Shown here one piece after another: positions 7,787 to 60,084 of a DNA stretch of 64,000 nucleotides (position 1 is its first letter; every line of letters starts with the position of its first letter). The position numbers and the translations under genes are program-made. The notes below the pieces were generated by a model. The model was not told the origin of the DNA. It saw nothing but the letters and a program-made list of their open reading frames with translations, and searched no databases. The stretch lies in the sequence record ON528729, one strand, 5' to 3'. Source of the DNA: Shigella phage ESh19.

Positions 7787-8581
7787 TTATTGTAGTTGAG
7801 AACCAGTGAGTTCACGCTCAGACATTGCTTCTAGCTGCTGAACAAACTCTTCACCGAAGTTGATTGCAATCTTGGTGCTAAGGACTGCTGCACCAGTTTG
7901 GCTAAATACATCCCCTAGTGCTGCTGTATGAGCACCTTGTGAAATGCTCTCTACAAAGCTTGGGTCAGACTCTAACATTTTTGACACTTCAAGTAAAGCA
8001 TGAATACCCATGATACTAAAGATAGCGTTTAACAGTGAAGTTACCTTAACCTGAATAGGGTCTAAAGAGAGACCATTAGTAATCTCTGACAGCTTATTCA
8101 TTGTCTCATCAGCGTACTGAATTGCCTTGTCAGAGACTTCATCAAAGCCCCAATCCAGTTTTGCATAACGTGGTGACTTATCATTCATACGCTTCTCTAG
8201 CGATGCCATTACAGCAGCAACTGGTGTACAAATACCTTTCAGAAGGTCTTCATCACTCATGTTATCAAGCTCTTTAATACCCTTCTCAGTAATCTGGATG
8301 TATCCACCTGAATACATTTCATCAAAGATGTATGTTGCAAAGGCATCAACACCAATGAGGATGGTTTTCAGAGCATCAGTCTTATTAGCCAGCAGGTATT
8401 CAACCTCTTTACGGAAATCTTCGTCATTCTCTACAGCGTTTTCTACAACACGCAGAGATTCAGGGATAAATTTTCCTGACAGTGAGTTGCTACGCATAAT
8501 GATAGCAAGAGTCTCAACAGTGTTCAGCATGAATGCTTCGTCAATACCTTTTTCTTCCAGAATCTCATTTACAGTTTTCAT
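7787..8581 (-). CDS. hypothetical protein (264 aa)
   Basis: ORF track. Confidence 0.5.
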   Translation of the reverse strand: MKTVNEILEEKGIDEAFMLNTVETLAIIMRSNSLSGKFIPESLRVVENAVENDEDFRKEVEYLLANKTDALKTILIGVDAFATYIFDEMYSGGYIQITEKGIKELDNMSDEDLLKGICTPVAAVMASLEKRMNDKSPRYAKLDWGFDEVSDKAIQYADETMNKLSEITNGLSLDPIQVKVTSLLNAIFSIMGIHALLEVSKMLESDPSFVESISQGAHTAALGDVFSQTGAAVLSTKIAINFGEEFVQQLEAMSERELTGSQLQ

Positions 8582-40745: not shown

Positions 40746-42347
40746 TTATCGTCTTAGCCCCTGATATGGATTACTCTTCATAATATCTGTATGAGCACCC
40801 ATTGAAGGTGGCTTGAATAGTTTAACTTCGTTTAGACTGTTGAAAGCATCACTGGTAGCATCCACTTGGTCATCCTTGGTACGACCATCACCACAAAAAC
40901 CTTCTAGTTCTTGGAAATATGCTTCATTCCAAGAGCCTCTAACAATTTTGACAAGTCCTGCCTCAGAAGCAGCAGAGAAACCCGCAAAACGGGTGACTTT
41001 ATCTTTATTTGTTGGTTTAGCTCTTGCTCGGAAACCTTTCTCAGCAAGTTTTCTAATAAGGGAGGTTGCGTAGGATTTACCAGCAGCGCCGGGGTCTTGA
41101 GGGATAAAAATACCTGTGCGCTTACCGTCACCTTCAGCAGTTTGGTTAATTTGTGTTTCAACTCCAGAAGGTCTATCTCTAAATCTTACTACGTTAATCA
41201 CATAATAGCAACCATCTTTTTTAGATTTACCCATTTTAACACCTGCTGTCCAGTCAGGGTTAGGGTTAACCTCAGAAGGTAATGTTGCTGCTAAGTCCCA
41301 TGCTCTTACGTCAAATACATCTGCTGGAACACTATCAACAATTTCACACCATTGTCTTTGCCAGTAGTTTGAACCTTCAGCACGAGCTTTCCAGTTACCA
41401 AAACGTAAACGTGCAACGTTAACTGGTGTGTTGTTTTCTAATTTACCACGATACTTAGGTTCAAGGAAATCTAGAATAGGGTTGTCATCAATTGTACCAG
41501 AAATAAAGGTATATGTTTGAGGAATCTCAAGAGGGAACATTTCAAGAATTTTATCTCTATCCCAATCAGAAACCATGACACCATCATTCATAACATACCA
41601 ACGAATCCTACCGCACTTCTCTGGGTCTGGATATCCAGCATCATCTAGGAAAGGTTCTACCCAATCATAAATAAAGTGGTCTCTATCTGGGTTCATTGAG
41701 ATTTTCATATATGAGTCACCTTCAGCACCAGAACGTAAACGTGTCTGAAGATATGAAATCTGTGAAGCCGAGAAGTGTGTACCTTCGTCGAAGTAAATAG
41801 CTGAGTATTCGATACCTTGGTGACCTTCTGAGTGTTTTTCAAGTTCCAAATAAGTAAACTTAATAGTCGCCCCTGAAGGGAAAGTGATAGTCATTTTCTG
41901 TTCGTGTGGGATTCCACCAAACTTACCAAATAGCTTTTTAGCTGCTGGCCATAAACCACCTTGTAACTGTGTAGTATTTCGACGGAAATATACAGCGTTA
42001 TAGTTAGGGTCATCAATGAATCTCAAAGAGTCCATTAATAGGGCAGCAGTCTTACCAGCACCAGCAGCACCACCATATAGTACCAAGTCAGCATTAGTGT
42101 TCAAGAATACCTCTTGAGAGCCAGGCTGTGGAGCTACATAGTTCTTGTCAGTCATCAATTTAAAGATGAGTCTTACTTGGTCTGGGGTGTACCTTAATAA
42201 AGTCAGAATTTGAGTTGGAAGGAATTTAGAGGGGTCTTTACCAAAGGATTTGATAATATCTTTTACTTCTTCAGAAAGCCCCAACTCACCTGCTAGGACT
42301 TTCCTTACATCTTCCACTCGCTTCTGCTTAATAACATTTAAGTCCAT
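40746..42347 (-). CDS. terminase large subunit
   Basis: Walker A VLYGGAAGAGKTAAL; start refined to ATG 42347 with RBS AGAGGTG. Confidence 0.75.
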   Translation of the reverse strand: MDLNVIKQKRVEDVRKVLAGELGLSEEVKDIIKSFGKDPSKFLPTQILTLLRYTPDQVRLIFKLMTDKNYVAPQPGSQEVFLNTNADLVLYGGAAGAGKTAALLMDSLRFIDDPNYNAVYFRRNTTQLQGGLWPAAKKLFGKFGGIPHEQKMTITFPSGATIKFTYLELEKHSEGHQGIEYSAIYFDEGTHFSASQISYLQTRLRSGAEGDSYMKISMNPDRDHFIYDWVEPFLDDAGYPDPEKCGRIRWYVMNDGVMVSDWDRDKILEMFPLEIPQTYTFISGTIDDNPILDFLEPKYRGKLENNTPVNVARLRFGNWKARAEGSNYWQRQWCEIVDSVPADVFDVRAWDLAATLPSEVNPNPDWTAGVKMGKSKKDGCYYVINVVRFRDRPSGVETQINQTAEGDGKRTGIFIPQDPGAAGKSYATSLIRKLAEKGFRARAKPTNKDKVTRFAGFSAASEAGLVKIVRGSWNEAYFQELEGFCGDGRTKDDQVDATSDAFNSLNEVKLFKPPSMGAHTDIMKSNPYQGLRR

Positions 42348-42368
42348 TAAGCACCTCTGCAAATAGAA

Positions 42369-42794: not shown

Positions 42795-42870
42795 TGGAGT
42801 ATCGGAAGGGACTCGAACCCTCATAAACCTGTTTTGCAGACAGGCACATAACCATTTCTGACACCGACAC
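42795..42870 (-). tRNA. tRNA-Cys (GCA)
   Basis: T-arm GAGGG-TTCGAGT-CCCTT, anticodon stem CCTGT/ACAGG loop CTGCAAA, acceptor GTGTCGG/CCGATAC, U73, CCA encoded. Confidence 0.7.
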
Positions 42871-42876
42871 ATAATT

Positions 42877-42969
42877 TGGAGGAAGATACCAGACTTGAAC
42901 TGGTACGCCGATTTCTCGGTTACTGGCAGTTTAGCAAACTGCTCCCTTACCTTTTAGGGTTAATCTTCC
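42877..42969 (-). tRNA. tRNA-Ser (GCT), type II
   Basis: Acceptor GGAAGAT/ATCTTCC perfect, anticodon loop TTGCTAA, long variable arm, T-arm ACCAG-TTCAAGT-CTGGT. Confidence 0.7.
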
Positions 42970-42970
42970 A

Positions 42971-43704
42971 TTATTTGTTCAGAGCTTCTTTCATCTCTGG
43001 AGTTGCAATAGTATCAATCACACCAGTTTTACATGAATCATCAAACCAGCTTGGTAGAACATTTGCAAGGAAACCATTAATATTTGTTTTCAGGTATTCT
43101 GCAATCAGTGCTGCTTCATCTGCAATCATCTGAGTTACTTCATTAGCATATGCAGTAATCTTTGCAATACCCTCATTAATCGCTGTAACGGCCTGTGTAG
43201 CGAGTTCAGAGATTGTATCTAGTCCTTGGTCGATTGCATCTTGCAAATCGCTTAGAACGCTATTTACAGCGTCTATGGAGGTATTAATCAAATCCATCGC
43301 TTTATTACCGTACTCGGTAGCTACGCCCATGATACCACTAAACGGTGTACATCCAACCTGTTCACCTGCTGCTCCCATAACGTTAGAGTAACCCTTAGCT
43401 ACTTGCATACGTTGTGAAAACTCATCTACAGACTTTTGCCCATACTCAGTGAGTGTACTTGTCGTTGAAGTTGTACTTCCAAGGCTTGTTGTGAAGCTTC
43501 CTAATAGGGCTGTTGTCAGTCCAGCAGCAACTAAAATCTGTTGTGTAGCTGGGTCTGTTACAGAACTAATTGAGTTAACTAATGATTGAGAGGCAGCTAC
43601 AGTACCACCAAGAACTGCTGCACCAGTAATAAGAGGGTTTGAGAAACCATTACCGGTTTTAAGGAGATTAAAAATCTCTTTACTTTGTTCTGTCATCTCT
43701 TTCA
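42971..43704 (-). CDS. hypothetical Gly/Ala/Ser/Thr-rich protein (244 aa) inside tRNA island
   Basis: ORF track (start refined to ATG 43704; upstream extension overlaps tRNA-Phe). Confidence 0.45.
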
Positions 43705-43721
43705 TTATGCACCTATAAAGT

Positions 43722-43797
43722 TGGTAGCCCATCGGGATTTGAACCCTGTTCTCATGTTTTTCAGACACGCGCTTTAACCATATAAGCTAATTGAGCT
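43722..43797 (-). tRNA. tRNA-Phe (GAA)
   Basis: Anticodon stem CGTGT/ACATG loop CTGAAAA; T-loop TTCAAAT; acceptor AGCTCAA/ATGGGCT (one mismatch); CCA encoded. Confidence 0.55.
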
Positions 43798-43804
43798 ATT
43801 AAAT

Positions 43805-43881
43805 TGGGGTGACCTACGGGAATCGAACCCGTATAGACCATGTTCACAGCATGGGTCATTATCCATTTATGATAAGGCCAC
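43805..43881 (-). tRNA. tRNA-His (GTG)
   Basis: Anticodon stem CCATG/CATGG loop CTGTGAA, C73, T-arm ACGGG-TTCGATT-CCCGT. Confidence 0.7.
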
Positions 43882-43912
43882 ATTTAAGGACTCTCGTAAG
43901 AATCCTTAGAAG

Positions 43913-43988
43913 TGGCAGCAGTATAAGGATTTGAACCTTAATCTTTCAGCTTCAGAGGCTGGAGCATTCCCAGTTATGCTATACTGCT
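43913..43988 (-). tRNA. tRNA-Gln (CTG)
   Basis: Acceptor AGCAGTA/TACTGCT perfect, D-stem GCAT/ATGC, anticodon loop CTCTGAA, T-arm TAAGG-TTCAAAT-CCTTA. Confidence 0.6.
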
Positions 43989-43994
43989 AATATT

Positions 43995-57499: not shown

Positions 57500-58167
57500 T
57501 TATGGGACACCTACTGAAGAAGAGTTGGAAGAACTTAACAGATATGGTTCCCCATCTGAAGAGGAAGCGGAAGAACTCCGAAGAATGGGAAGCAATTACT
57601 AAGAAATGTTTTAAGGATTTGATAGAGATGAAAAAGTTTGAACTTGAAAGAAAGTATCTGGTACTGAGTCTAGATGATATTAACACTTATCTGTCAGAGG
57701 ATGAGCAAGAGTATCTTAACAATATTGTTGACACACTCTACAATGCACGTATAGAGGATTGTAAAGACCAACTTGAAGGTATCTTTATCAAGAAGTCTTA
57801 TCCGTTCTATGAAGATACTTTGAAGAAACTTGAGATGTATGTTAAGCAGCAGAACCGTAAAGAGTTCTCTATGATTTCTCTTGGTGGACAACAAATGCTG
57901 GTTATGGAAGATATAAACCCTAAGAGAACCAACAAAGGTGTTTGTATCAAGGTCACAGGTAAAGAGGAATTTGTTGAATATGACATACTCAGACACATTA
58001 TAGATGGTTTGGGTGCTGTACTGAACATGAATGAATACCATATTAGTTCACACCCGATTAAGGGTGACCAGATAATGATTCAGGTAAGAGAACGTCATAA
58101 TGGGTTCACACACTTCTTCCAGACTTCTAAAACTTCATTGCAAACTATGCTTAGTGAAGTGATGTAA
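57496..58167 (+). CDS. hypothetical protein (223 aa)
   Basis: ORF track. Confidence 0.5.
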   Translation: MIMGHLLKKSWKNLTDMVPHLKRKRKNSEEWEAITKKCFKDLIEMKKFELERKYLVLSLDDINTYLSEDEQEYLNNIVDTLYNARIEDCKDQLEGIFIKKSYPFYEDTLKKLEMYVKQQNRKEFSMISLGGQQMLVMEDINPKRTNKGVCIKVTGKEEFVEYDILRHIIDGLGAVLNMNEYHISSHPIKGDQIMIQVRERHNGFTHFFQTSKTSLQTMLSEVM

Positions 58168-58175
58168 AACTATAC

Positions 58176-58223
58176 AGCCCCTTAAAATGGATTCGATAGA
58201 ATCTATCTCATAGGGGCTTTTTA
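58176..58223 (+). terminator. terminator-like hairpin (CAGCCCCT...AGGGGCT then TTTTT) ending plus-strand cluster
   Basis: Stem with nested GATTC/GAATC hairpin followed by T5. Confidence 0.45.
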
Positions 58224-58339
58224 TTGAGTAAATTTACGAAATTTATAATTTTTATAAAATTTGGGATTCACTCCGTTCATCTTGGGTCACCATGATATGT
58301 GATAAAATATCTATACCCTTCTAAACACCCTCTCTAAGC

Positions 58340-58590
58340 ATCATCTCTATATAGTATTATATAGTATCTATATAGCCTCTTAGTCTCTAAATAGTGCTCT
58401 CTATATAGCCCTCTATAAAGCCTTCTAAGCCTACCATTAATCAACCCTATACAATCACCTTCCTAACCTCTTTCTAGCCCCTTAGAAGCCCCTATACCCA
58501 TCTTAATCTCTATGTCCAAGATAGTACCCTATATAGCAGAATCACTAGGTATTACTAAGCCTCTATATAGACTGTTATATAGCACTAAAC
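58340..58590. repeat. cluster of CTATATAG / TATAGCC short motifs on pyrimidine-rich plus strand
   Basis: ctatatagtattatatagtatctatatagcc ... ctctatatagccc ... cctatatagcag ... ctctatatagactgttatatagc. Confidence 0.5.
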
Positions 58591-58799
58591 AGGTATTCCC
58601 TTCTAAGGCTTATTCTACAAGGTCTAACACGGTACTAACAAGGTCTCTTATAAACCTGTTAATTCCTGTTTTATATAAGATAGTGTATAGATAGTTATTC
58701 AGAATTATAAAATTTTTATAAAATAGACTAGGTAGTGTTTATTTAGGGGTCTTTGGAGAATCTGAAAAATATCTACTTAGGGTGTATATCTGCTTGGTA

Positions 58800-59310
58800 G
58801 CCCTTAACAGCCCTGTAACATCCCCTTTGCAAAATCTTAAAATATCATTAACAATCTCTTAACAACTCTCCCAAGCTCTTAACATCTCTTCAAAGGTCTT
58901 AACAGTTTCTTAACAGAACTAACAAGGGTGTAACAAGAGTTTAATAGTACTTACAAGAATCTAACAAGTTGCTTATAAGTTGCTAAATAGTTAAATCTTA
59001 AGAGTTATTTTGTTAAGATAATTAACAAGATACTAACAAGTTCTAAACCTTTTTAACAAGCTATTAACATGGTCACTATCTCTTCTCTTATCGTTCCCTA
59101 TCCCTCTCAGTGATTCTCTAAACATACCTCTTAAAAGCCCTGTATAGCTCTGTGTGGCCTCTTCTAAGATTCTTACTAGTATCTATAGCCCAACTGACTA
59201 TATAGCTCTTTATAGCCCTTTATAGGGACTTATACAGGGACTTCAAAGTGTCTAACAAGCTTTTAACATACATCTAACAAGGATTTAACAAGGGGCTAAC
59301 AAGTCTCTAA
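58800..59310. repeat. array of degenerate about 10-11 bp tandem repeats (CTTAACAAG / CTAACAAG-like units)
   Basis: More than 20 units such as tcttaacaac, tcttaacatc, gtcttaacag, aactaacaag, aatctaacaag, gctaacaag, with roughly helical-turn periodicity. Confidence 0.6.
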
Positions 59311-59368
59311 TAAGCATAACTATGTTGCATTTGTTAAGATTTTGTTAAGAGAATGTAAAGGGGGCTAA

Positions 59369-59409
59369 CTTTTACGTTACTTTTAAGGTTCTTTTACGTT
59401 ACTTTTAAG
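59369..59409 (+). repeat. 19-bp perfect direct repeat CTTTTACGTTACTTTTAAG x2 (22-bp period)
   Basis: Copies at 59369-59387 and 59391-59409. Confidence 0.6.
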
Positions 59410-59771
59410 CTCTTTTTAGTCTCCATAACACATTATTAAGTAACTTTCAAGCACCTGTTTAACCATTCACAAGATACTAACGAGATAATAAAGCTTATAC
59501 CCCTTATAAGATTCTTTTAAGGCTCTAGAAAGCTCTATAAAGGGCTTTTAAGAAGTGGTTAATATGATTGCTTAAGATGAGATGATAAGCCCGTATAGAG
59601 CGTTATAGAGCGTTTTAGAGATTGCCCTTCCCTTTCGGGTTATGGGCTTATATTTAAGGGAAAGATTAGTTGACTTGATAAGATGATATAGAGTAAGCTA
59701 TAGAGTTATTGTTCTAAAGGTCTGGTAAGATTCTAGGAAGGGTTCTGTATAGAGTCCTATCTCATAGACGT

Positions 59772-59795
59772 AAAAAAGCCCCATCTAAGGGGCTG
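59772..59795 (-). terminator. rho-independent terminator (AGCCCC-ATCTAA-GGGGCT then UUUUUU on minus)
   Basis: 6-bp stem preceded on plus by A6; lies 3' of the minus-strand early gene array. Confidence 0.55.
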
Positions 59796-59835: not shown

Positions 59836-60084
59836 TTAGTTCCTGCCAACCTTATCATAGTAAATAGAGATTATAGCATCTTCCCAATAGTGGTATGAGT
59901 AACCATCATTAATGGCCTCATTGACGGCAAAGTTCCAATAATCCTTTTCAGGGTTATAATCACTAATTACTGCAATGACAAGAGATTTCAGTAGTTTTTC
60001 TGGTAATTCAGAATTAGCAAGGTCTAATTTTGCATCAAGGATATAAGCACCAAAGTTGTTTACAGTAACACGTAAAGTAGCCAT
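59836..60084 (-). CDS. early protein, hypothetical (82 aa)
   Basis: ORF track; own promoter/leader cassette upstream. Confidence 0.55.
   Translation of the reverse strand: MATLRVTVNNFGAYILDAKLDLANSELPEKLLKSLVIAVISDYNPEKDYWNFAVNEAINDGYSYHYWEDAIISIYYDKVGRN

What the first reader, a model, noticed from the sequence alone, without database searches (positions are those of the whole stretch)
58224..59771. 1.5-kb gene-free, terminator-flanked region packed with helical-period short repeats
Between the plus-strand terminator (58176-58223) and the minus-strand terminator (59772-59795) there is no convincing ORF. The plus strand is strongly pyrimidine/A-rich, with over 20 degenerate CTTAACAAG/CTAACAAG units at about 10-11 bp spacing (58800-59310), clusters of CTATATAG/TATAGAG motifs, and a perfect 19-bp direct repeat (59369-59409). 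Helical-phase repeat arrays are typical of iteron origins, terminase small-subunit (pac) binding arrays, or partition/nucleoid-protein scaffolds; none is annotated by the protein-coding features.
Basis: seen in the sequence. Interest (0 to 1): 0.7.

Follow-up and report, generated by a model that had tools for sequence, protein, structure and literature searches.

The report
Phage genome ends: terminal repeat region
The gene-free, repeat-packed stretch is where this Felix O1-like phage's linear DNA begins and ends: a 570-bp direct terminal repeat with its non-coding flanks, already mapped in close relatives, although the phased short-motif arrays inside it have not been described in the papers I could search.

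Summary
Window 58224-59771 has no conserved ORF and is bounded by convergent terminators. It holds the strongest 10-11 bp periodicity in the 64-kb window.

The window comes from a Mooglevirus (Felix O1-like myophage, Ounavirinae). Five relatives carry an identical sequence at both record ends:
- vB_CbrM_HP1, same genus, 570 bp
- Pr103Blw and vB_EcoM_D4, 581 bp each
- ECP2307, 592 bp
- SPJ41, 613 bp

All five map to window 58796-59365 exactly. The 608-bp terminal repeat of UAB_Phi87, determined by Bal31 digestion and run-off sequencing, maps to the same place within 2 and 8 nt.

So the TAACAAG array is the body of the direct terminal repeat (DTR), collapsed to one copy inside the assembly. The CTATATAG/TATAGAG arrays and the 22-bp tandem are the non-coding DNA just inside the two genome ends.

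The boundary sequences are conserved as far as Kolesnikvirus. TAACA cores are 95% conserved against 71% for spacers. DTR length across about 35 genomes changes in steps of about 11 bp.

The most likely function is a cis-acting terminase recognition and end-processing site. That function is inferred, not shown. An iteron origin or a partition site is not supported.

It is a new member of a known kind, of modest interest.

The parts
58176..58223 (+). Intrinsic terminator closing the + strand block of small genes. This block runs toward the right genome end.
   Evidence: Hairpin AGCCCCT...AGGGGCT followed by TTTTT, -21.5 kcal/mol. Annotated as a terminator in phage Michonne.
58224..58795 (.). Non-coding unique DNA just inside the right genome end, holding a CTCTATATAG-type array in + orientation (about 58340-58580, period about 11.7).
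   Evidence: No conserved ORF. CTATATAG occurs at 17.5 per kb here against 0.03 per kb elsewhere. Identity to seven Felixounavirus genomes is 72%, with blocks above 0.9.
58247..58260 (+). First copy of the AT-rich 14-mer AATTTTTATAAAAT. With the copy at 58711, it brackets the CTATATAG array.
   Evidence: The only two perfect copies in the window are at 58247 and 58711.
58711..58724 (+). Second copy of AATTTTTATAAAAT, inside a block of 89% A+T (58696-58730) that lies 66 bp outside the DTR.
   Evidence: The block is conserved in Felixounavirus.
58783..58795 (+). Left boundary box TGTATATCTGCTT, immediately outside the DTR. It is the predicted cleavage context for the left genome end.
   Evidence: Identical in the 13 Mooglevirus and Felixounavirus sequences examined and in Kolesnikvirus SPARTY. 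Window 58780-58809 is the most conserved 30-bp block, at 0.96-0.97.
58796..59365 (.). Predicted 570-bp direct terminal repeat (DTR). It is present once here because the assembly collapses the two terminal copies.
   Evidence: The terminal duplications of HP1 (570 bp), Pr103Blw and D4 (581 bp), ECP2307 (592 bp) and SPJ41 (613 bp) map to exactly these coordinates. The experimentally determined UAB_Phi87 DTR maps within 2 and 8 nt. There is a single copy in the window.
58796..59075 (+). Left half of the DTR: about 25 tandem 10-11 bp units of the form nnCTTAACA(A/G)(G), with period 10.3 bp.
   Evidence: TAACA cores are 95% conserved against 71% for spacers. The first 110 bp or so are the only part alignable to Kolesnikvirus.
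59076..59115 (.). Non-repetitive pyrimidine-rich core of the DTR (ACTATCTCTTCTCTTATCGTTCCCTATCCCTCTCAGTGATT).
   Evidence: No motif hits. Identity to Felixounavirus is 0.78-0.97.
59116..59320 (+). Right half of the DTR: mixed CTnTATAG and CTAACAAG units, with period 11.2 bp.
59329..59365 (-). Right end of the DTR: two inverted units (TTGTTAAG) followed by the boundary box AATGTAAAGGGGGC. The cut falls before TAAC.
   Evidence: Minus-strand matrix hits at 59329 and 59340. The box AATGT(A/T)AA(A)G(G/T)GGC|TA is conserved in all relatives including SPARTY. Some relatives have one unit more or fewer.
59366..59771 (.). Non-coding unique DNA just inside the left genome end. The motifs are in inverted orientation (TATAGAG on the + strand).
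   Evidence: TATAGAG occurs 5 times on + here, and its reverse complement CTCTATA 4 times on + in the left flank. GC skew changes sign near 59300-59400. Identity to Felixounavirus is 76%.
59369..59416 (+). 22-bp tandem repeat (TTTACGTTAC-TTTTAAG, 2.2 copies) starting 4 bp inside the DTR boundary. It is a candidate recognition element.
   Evidence: Tandem Repeats Finder: period 22, 92% matches. TTTACGT(A/T)AC-TTT(T/A)(A/T)AG is kept in Felixounavirus, where TTACGTAA is a perfect palindrome.
59624..59647 (+). Conserved two-part GC hairpin: GCCC-TT-CCC-TTTC-GGG-TTAT-GGGC.
   Evidence: Identity 0.95-0.97. SPARTY has a hairpin of different sequence but similar shape at a similar distance. Function unknown.
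59766..59795 (-). Intrinsic terminator closing the - strand block of small genes. This block runs toward the left genome end.
   Evidence: Stem at 59777-59794 with a T-run. Annotated in Michonne and Mordin.

Best explanation
**What it is.** The window comes from a Mooglevirus (Felix O1-like myophage), and its virion DNA is linear with a short exact direct terminal repeat. The finding covers the genome ends as they appear when the two repeat copies are collapsed in an assembly, or as they lie in a replicative concatemer.

- 58224-58795 is the last unique, non-coding DNA of the right end.
- 58796-59365 is the 570-bp DTR.
- 59366-59771 is the first unique, non-coding DNA of the left end.

Both adjacent gene blocks are transcribed toward the ends and stop at terminators.

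**Shown.**
- The position and boundaries of the DTR, by homology to six relatives with determined or duplicated ends.
- Conservation of the two boundary boxes across three genera.
- Selective conservation of the TAACA cores.

**Inferred mechanism.** The phased 10-11 bp motifs place many equivalent sites on one face of the helix. These could load multiple copies of a phage packaging-recognition protein: the terminase, or a small subunit or accessory factor not yet identified. That would position the large terminase (window 40746-42362) to cut at ...ATATCTGCTT^GGTAGCCC and ...AAGGGGGC^TAAC. The single junction copy of the repeat would then be duplicated by strand-displacement synthesis, as in T7-type phages.

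**Confidence.** About 0.9 that this is the DTR and end region. About 0.4 that the arrays work specifically as terminase-recognition sites. The single confidence value given for this explanation (0.85) refers to the identification as the DTR and end region.
For: **Identity of the phage.** The region is 92% identical to Citrobacter phage BSwM KMM4 and about 90% identical to Michonne, Mordin and Sf13-19.

**Ends determined in relatives.**
- Pr103Blw annotates a 581-bp 'short direct terminal repeat' at both record ends, from PhageTerm (PMC8303462).
- Its junction aligns collinearly with the window, and its DTR maps to 58796-59365.
- D4, SPJ41 and ECP2307 have 581, 613 and 592 bp identical at both ends, mapping to the same two coordinates.
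- HP1 is in the same genus. It annotates repeat_region 1-570 and 88766-89335, described as 'direct repeats at both termini' (PMC9120918). It also maps to 58796-59365.
- UAB_Phi87 ends were found with Bal31 digestion plus run-off sequencing. Its published 608-bp DTR sequence matches the homologous 614-bp interval, differing by 2 nt and 8 nt at the edges.
- Kolesnikvirus SPARTY and PM21 have terminal duplications of 439 and 438 bp. SPARTY shows both boundary boxes and PM21 the right-hand one, and SPARTY's repeat is rich in TTAACA.

**Evidence that the arrays are functional.**
- TAACA cores are 0.95 conserved against 0.71 for spacers; none of 2000 permutations reached this difference.
- DTR lengths in about 35 genomes (558-658 bp) differ in steps of about 11 bp.
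- The flank motif differs by genus (TATAGAG here, TTAGAAG in SPARTY), while the DTR motif is kept.
Against: - There are no reads or virion DNA for this particular phage, so its ends are inferred from homology only.
- The run-off sequencing ends of UAB_Phi87 differ by 2 and 8 nt from the ends of the duplicated records. The exact cut positions, and whether the ends are blunt, are therefore uncertain.
- No protein that binds the motifs is known. Published annotation of Felix O1 and UAB_Phi87 identified no small terminase subunit.
- Higher identity at motif cores could be partly an alignment artefact, because repeated cores are easy to align.
- Length changes in units of 11 bp are expected from slippage in any tandem array, with or without selection for helical phase.
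Confidence: 0.85

Rival explanations
1. Replication origin. The arrays would be iterons for a phage initiator, and the block of 89% A+T at 58696-58730 would be the unwinding element. This could coexist with the terminal repeat.
For: - There are repeat arrays next to a conserved AT-rich block.
- The region is conserved and non-coding.
Against: - The units are 10-11 bp long in about 45 copies, not the few 17-22 bp iterons I recall as typical of iteron origins.
- There are no DnaA, IHF or Fis consensus sites.
- The site lies between convergent, terminated transcription units.
- The four neighbouring ORFs match only PHROG families of unknown function.
- The array boundaries coincide with the physical DNA ends, which already explains the conservation.
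Confidence: 0.1
2. End protection, or control of DNA ejection and entry. The phased arrays would give about 1 kb of non-coding DNA at each end. This DNA would be curved or would bind a host or virion protein. It could buffer against exonucleases, anchor the last-packaged end in the portal or tail, or pause genome entry.
For: - Each mature end would carry about 1 kb without genes: 570 + 406 bp at one end and 572 + 570 bp at the other (parts list).
- The periodicity is strong at the helical repeat.
- The motif orientation is mirrored around the DTR.
Against: - No host nucleoid-protein consensus sites and no Chi sites were found.
- Conservation is specific to the motif cores and the flank motif is genus-specific. 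Both point to a sequence-specific phage factor rather than to generic curvature.
- There is no experimental information on which end enters first.
Confidence: 0.15
3. Neutral satellite-like DNA. The short tandem units would simply expand and contract by slippage in a non-coding terminal region, and only the two cleavage boxes would be functional.
For: - DTR length varies by whole units among close relatives.
- The motifs are degenerate.
Against: - The cores are 95% conserved against 71% for spacers between genera.
- The arrays, their orientation and TTAACA itself persist in Kolesnikvirus, where the rest is no longer alignable.
- The region is at least as alignable between genera as the left neighbouring gene.
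Confidence: 0.1
4. Non-coding RNA locus, or a partition (centromere-like) array.
For: - There is a conserved hairpin at 59624-59647.
- From memory, phased 10-12 bp repeats resemble the parC and tubC centromeres.
Against: - No Rfam family was found; the only hit was a snoRNA model at E = 0.38.
- Promoter-like sites are not enriched: 6 found against 8.2 expected.
- Terminators face into the region from both sides.
- No partition-gene families were found among the four flanking ORFs tested, and the relatives are described as lytic in the papers read.
Confidence: 0.03

Closest known systems
Direct terminal repeat of Felix O1-like Salmonella phage UAB_Phi87 (Bardina et al. 2016, PMC4837284): 608 bp, determined with Bal31 and run-off sequencing
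   Same: - The sequence is homologous, at about 78% identity, and collinear.
- The left box ATATCTGCTT|GGTAGCCCTTAACA and the right box AATGT(A/T)AAGGGGGC|TA are the same.
- The TAACA arrays are the same.
   Different: - The window's repeat is 570 bp against 608-614 bp, about four 11-bp units shorter.
- It belongs to a different genus, Mooglevirus.
- The paper gives the sequence but does not discuss its internal repeats.
Terminal repeat of Citrobacter phage vB_CbrM_HP1 (Mooglevirus; OK539913.1, repeat_region 1-570 and 88766-89335; PMC9120918)
   Same: - It is in the same genus and has the same length, 570 bp.
- The boundaries are identical in position.
- Identity over the end region is 81-86%.
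   Different: - It is a different isolate with sequence differences.
- In the window's source assembly the repeat appears once, in the middle of the sequence.
T7/T3-type concatemer junction (short exact terminal repeat, one copy per junction, second copy synthesised during packaging)
   Same: - Both are short exact DTRs that are site-specifically cut (PMC10438801).
- From memory (Dunn and Studier 1983, not checked here), the T7 repeat is flanked by arrays of short repeats (SRL and SRR).
   Different: - There is no sequence similarity.
- The T7 repeat is, from memory, about 160 bp with its arrays outside it. Here the arrays also fill the repeat.
- T7 has an identified small terminase subunit, gp18 (gp18 and gp19 are named).
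- In T7, maturation is coupled to the phage RNA polymerase.
Phased binding arrays for oligomeric DNA-binding proteins (SPP1 pacL/pacR with G1P; R1 parC with ParR), a resemblance recalled from memory
   Same: Short repeats spaced at about one helical turn, of the kind used by ring-forming or filament-forming proteins.
   Different: - No binding protein is identified here.
- The unit number is much larger, at about 45.
- The arrays lie inside an exact terminal repeat rather than at a headful pac site or a plasmid centromere.

Membership tests
Short exact direct terminal repeat (DTR) genome ends, Felix O1 / Ounavirinae type | The homologous interval in relatives is duplicated exactly at both ends of the virion DNA or genome record | tested here: met
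   HP1, Pr103Blw, D4, ECP2307 and SPJ41 have 570-613 bp that are 100% identical at both record ends. All map to window 58796-59365. The experimental UAB_Phi87 DTR maps within 2 and 8 nt.
Short exact direct terminal repeat (DTR) genome ends, Felix O1 / Ounavirinae type | Boundary (cleavage-site) sequences are conserved | tested here: met
   TATATCTGCTT|RGTA and AATGTWAA(A)GKGGC|TA are present in the window and in the 14 other sequences examined; in PM21 only the right-hand box was matched. The 30-bp block 58780-58809 is the most conserved in the region, at 0.96-0.97.
Short exact direct terminal repeat (DTR) genome ends, Felix O1 / Ounavirinae type | Direct evidence in this phage: discrete read starts at both boundaries and doubled coverage, or end-labelling or Bal31 sensitivity | not testable with these tools
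   No reads or virion DNA are available. [quoted passage not shown]
Short exact direct terminal repeat (DTR) genome ends, Felix O1 / Ounavirinae type | The large terminase belongs to the clade associated with short DTR ends | tested here: inconclusive
   A large terminase is present at 40746-42362 (phrog_979, E = 3.8e-234). Its placement in the 'Felixounalikevirus DTR group' is taken from PMC4837284. No phylogeny was run here.
Headful pac site (P22/SPP1/P1 type) | Circularly permuted, terminally redundant DNA with imprecise ends downstream of pac | tested here: not met
   The relatives have exact, identical ends. In UAB_Phi87, discrete fragments disappeared on Bal31 digestion. PhageTerm classed Pr103Blw as DTR.
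Iteron-type replication origin | A few 17-22 bp iterons, with an AT-rich unwinding element, DnaA/IHF sites and an adjacent initiator gene (features as I recall them) | tested here: not met
   The units are 10-11 bp in about 45 copies. An AT-rich block is present, but there are no DnaA, IHF or Fis consensus sites. The four flanking ORFs match only families of unknown function.
Partition centromere (parC/tubC/parS type) | A repeat array next to a partition NTPase and adaptor gene pair, in a replicon that is maintained in the cell | tested here: not met
   The four flanking ORFs tested match only PHROGs of unknown function. The array lies inside the terminal repeat of a phage group described as lytic in the papers read. 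Only four ORFs were scanned.
Known RNA family (Rfam 15) | A match at the gathering score | tested here: not met
   The only hit was SNORA29, at 23.7 bits against a threshold of 50, with E = 0.38.

The most novel reading that the evidence does not exclude
The DTR and its flanks would form a large phased nucleoprotein platform. About 45 helically phased TAACA units lie inside the repeat, and genus-specific flank units (TATAGAG here, TTAGAAG in Kolesnikvirus) sit in mirrored orientation on either side. A so-far unidentified phage protein would bind these units and stand in for the missing small terminase subunit. It would measure and position the two cuts. The spacing between the cuts would be constrained to whole units of about 11 bp, so as to keep both cut sites in helical register.
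Probability: 0.3. Interest if true: 0.55.

Novelty: new member of a known kind. Interest (0 to 1): 0.3.

Why it matters
**Practical value.**
- It fixes the true ends of this genome: start at 58796, with 58796-59365 repeated at the other end.
- This matters for correct genome records, for genome engineering or rebooting, and for comparing Felix O1-like phages used in typing and biocontrol. Many of their database records are opened arbitrarily or lack the repeat.

**Biological value.**
- The family has no identified small terminase subunit.
- The conserved boundary boxes, core-conserved phased motifs, genus-specific flank motifs and 11-bp-quantised repeat length together give a concrete, testable map of the cis-acting signals its terminase must read.

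Tried and rejected
- **Rfam** scan at a permissive E-value found nothing credible.
- **Promoter scan:** sigma-70-like sites are not enriched, with 6 found against 8.2 expected. I therefore dropped the idea of a promoter cluster.
- **ORFs:** the 60-aa ORF at 58512-58694 and the small CDSs annotated in Michonne, ESh20, D4 and UAB_Phi87 are not conserved across genomes. I rejected them as genes.
- **Host-factor sites:** IHF, Fis, DnaA-box, Chi and T4-late-promoter consensus searches found none.
- **AT-rich 14-mer** AATTTTTATAAAAT as a general phage promoter element: it occurs only at the two sites in this region.
- **BSwM KMM2** record ends as evidence for Mooglevirus termini: there is only a 64-bp assembly overlap, opened inside the repeat, so it is not informative.
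- **Literature** searches for a description of the repeat's internal structure, or for transcriptomes of Felix O1-like phages, found none in the searchable library.
- **DNA curvature** was not computed, because I had no verified parameter set.
Full report
**1. What is in the sequence**

Window 58224-59771 lies between two blocks of small genes that converge on it. The + strand block ends at 58167 and the - strand block begins at 59836-60084. Each block is closed by a hairpin terminator: 58176-58223 on the + strand and a stem at 59777-59794 on the - strand.

The largest ORF inside is 60 aa. Across 14 homologous regions from relatives, no ORF of 40 aa or more is conserved in place. Four genomes have none at all.

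- A position weight matrix built from the TAACAAG units finds 25 sites inside 58796-59365. Hits of 10 bits or more occur at 24.6 per kb there, against 0.33 per kb in the other 58 kb.
- Fourier power peaks at 10.3 bp in 58796-59075 and at 11.2 bp in 59116-59365. It exceeds all shuffles and every same-sized segment elsewhere. The top three periodic 300-bp segments of the whole window are all here.
- CTATATAG-type units fill 58340-58580.
- The oriented form CTCTATA occurs 4 times on the + strand left of the array and 5 times on the - strand right of it. GC skew flips sign near 59300-59400. The arrangement is therefore mirrored.
- The perfect 19-bp repeat at 59369-59409 is a 22-bp tandem.

**2. 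What it is**

The window comes from a Mooglevirus, a Felix O1-like myophage of the subfamily Ounavirinae. It is 92% identical to Citrobacter phage BSwM KMM4 and about 90% identical to Michonne, Mordin and Sf13-19.

The key lead was that the Felixounavirus Pr103Blw record annotates a 581-bp 'short direct terminal repeat' under the homologous DNA. That repeat was reported from PhageTerm analysis (PMC8303462).

I rebuilt the Pr103Blw end-to-end junction with one repeat copy. It aligns collinearly with the window, and its repeat maps to 58796-59365.

Four further records carry a 100% identical sequence at both ends, and each maps to the same two coordinates:

| Phage | Genus | Terminal duplication |
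|---|---|---|
| vB_EcoM_D4 | not assigned in the record | 581 bp |
| ECP2307 | not assigned in the record | 592 bp |
| SPJ41 | Felixounavirus | 613 bp |
| vB_CbrM_HP1 | Mooglevirus | 570 bp |

D4 is called a Felixounavirus in its announcement. HP1 is in the window's own genus. [quoted passage not shown]

Independent wet-lab evidence exists for UAB_Phi87. Bal31 digestion removed two specific fragments, and run-off sequencing gave a 608-bp repeat. Its published sequence corresponds to the homologous 614-bp interval of that genome, differing by 2 nt at one edge and 8 nt at the other.

I conclude that 58796-59365 is the 570-bp direct terminal repeat of this phage. It is present once, inside the sequence, because assemblies collapse the two terminal copies. 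This is a known behaviour (PMC10438801). The DTR occurs only once in the window.

On that reading:

- The TAACAAG array is the body of the repeat.
- 58224-58795 is the non-coding DNA just inside the right end.
- 59366-59771 is the non-coding DNA just inside the left end.

**3. Evidence on function**

*The boundaries are the most conserved parts.* TGTATATCTGCTT lies immediately outside the left boundary. AATGT(A/T)AA(A)G(G/T)GGC ends the repeat and is followed by TA. Both boxes are present in the window, the 12 other Mooglevirus and Felixounavirus sequences examined, and Kolesnikvirus SPARTY. In SPARTY almost nothing else aligns.

*The motif cores are under constraint.* Within the array, the TAACA cores are 95% identical between the window and seven Felixounavirus genomes. 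The spacers between them are 71% identical. None of 2000 permutations reached this difference. Repeated cores are easy to align, so part of this could be an alignment artefact.

*The Kolesnikvirus repeat keeps the same design.* Its 439-bp repeat has TTAACA units at 10-11 bp spacing in its left half and inverted TGTTAA units at its right end. Its flank arrays use a different motif, TTAGAAG, in place of TATAGAG.

*Repeat length is quantised.* Across about 35 genomes it takes the values 558, 567, 570, 579-582, 591-592, 601-603, 612-614, 623, 633, 638 and 658 bp. These are steps of about 11 bp. In the 33 genomes tallied, 30 have a length congruent to 7-9 modulo 11. This fits gain and loss of whole units. 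It cannot by itself separate slippage from selection for helical register.

*The whole region is conserved.* It aligns continuously between genera at 72-80% identity. The left neighbouring gene is only partly alignable.

**4. Most likely mechanism**

*Shown.* The region contains the packaged-DNA ends. The cut contexts are conserved. The motif cores are constrained.

*Inferred.* During packaging from concatemers, the terminase recognises this region and cuts at the two boundary boxes. The large subunit is at 40746-42362, with the portal gene next to it. The 570 bp between the cuts is then duplicated, as in T7-type phages.

The helically phased motifs are best explained as multiple binding sites for a recognition protein. 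That could be a small terminase subunit or an accessory factor that has not been identified in this family. The genus-specific flank motifs and the boundary-adjacent 22-bp tandem are candidates for the specificity determinants.

I put about 0.9 on the identification as the DTR and end region, and about 0.4 on this role for the arrays.

**5. Rivals**

- *An origin of replication.* An AT-rich block lies next to the arrays. However, the unit size and number are unlike iterons as I recall them. There are no DnaA, IHF or Fis sites, and the neighbouring ORFs match only families of unknown function.
- *End protection, ejection control or curved DNA.* This is compatible with about 1 kb of gene-free DNA at each end, but nothing specific supports it.
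- *Neutral satellite DNA.* This is contradicted by core-specific conservation and by persistence across three genera.
- *A non-coding RNA or a partition site.* There is no support for either.

**6. Comparison with what is known, and novelty**

DTRs of 570-614 bp at this locus are already recorded for relatives, once experimentally. The finding is therefore a new member of a known kind.

In the papers I could search and read, I found no description of the internal architecture. The features missing from those papers are:

- the phased arrays;
- the mirrored flanks;
- the boundary boxes;
- the 11-bp length quantisation.

UAB_Phi87's paper prints the repeat sequence without comment. The searchable library is limited, so this absence is not proof.

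**7. Verdict**

The origin and partition options are not supported. Interest is modest, at 0.3.

Noticed in passing
window 1-64000: The tetranucleotide GATC is completely absent: 0 observed against about 226 expected from base composition. CCGG and CGCG are also about 8-fold depleted. This suggests strong avoidance of Dam or GATC-specific restriction.
   Followed up: partly
window 59624-59647; SPARTY junction about 2308-2340 (built from L019/L020): The two-part GC hairpin GCCC-TT-CCC-TTTC-GGG-TTAT-GGGC is about 96% conserved in Felixounavirus. Kolesnikvirus has a hairpin of different sequence but similar shape at a similar distance inside the same genome end. Its function is unknown, and covariation was not formally tested.
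   Followed up: partly
UAB_Phi87 locus L023 1597-2210, against Figure S1 of PMC4837284: The run-off sequencing ends of UAB_Phi87 extend 2 nt beyond one boundary and stop 8 nt short of the other, compared with the ends seen in five duplicated-end records. This could be imprecise reading, or the ends may not be blunt.
   Followed up: partly
L046 (IMGVR_UViG_3300045988_004931), downstream of position 7823: The right-boundary units (…TTGTTAAGAATTTGTTAAGGGGACTAACAAG…) appear several times in tandem in this metagenome contig. This is either a mis-assembly of the repeat or a real expansion.
   Followed up: no
phage database hits GU169904.1 (Staphylococcus phage SA1, 135839-136559) and OK283618.1 (Listeria phage LPML1, 47315-47447): Records attributed to phages of Gram-positive hosts contain DNA matching this enterobacterial-phage terminal repeat: 80% identity over 95% of the query for SA1, and 73% over only 17% for LPML1. 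Mixed assemblies or mislabelled hosts are likely.
   Followed up: no
window 42795-47882: There is a cluster of 25 tRNA genes on the - strand, immediately upstream of the large terminase gene at 40746-42362. No small-terminase-sized gene sits between them.
   Followed up: no
OP902295.1 (BSwM KMM2) record ends, L009/L010: This record starts and ends with the same 64 bp, and it is opened inside the terminal repeat at window-equivalent 58808-58870. This is an assembly overlap rather than true ends. Several other relatives' records are also opened arbitrarily and lack the second repeat copy.
   Followed up: yes
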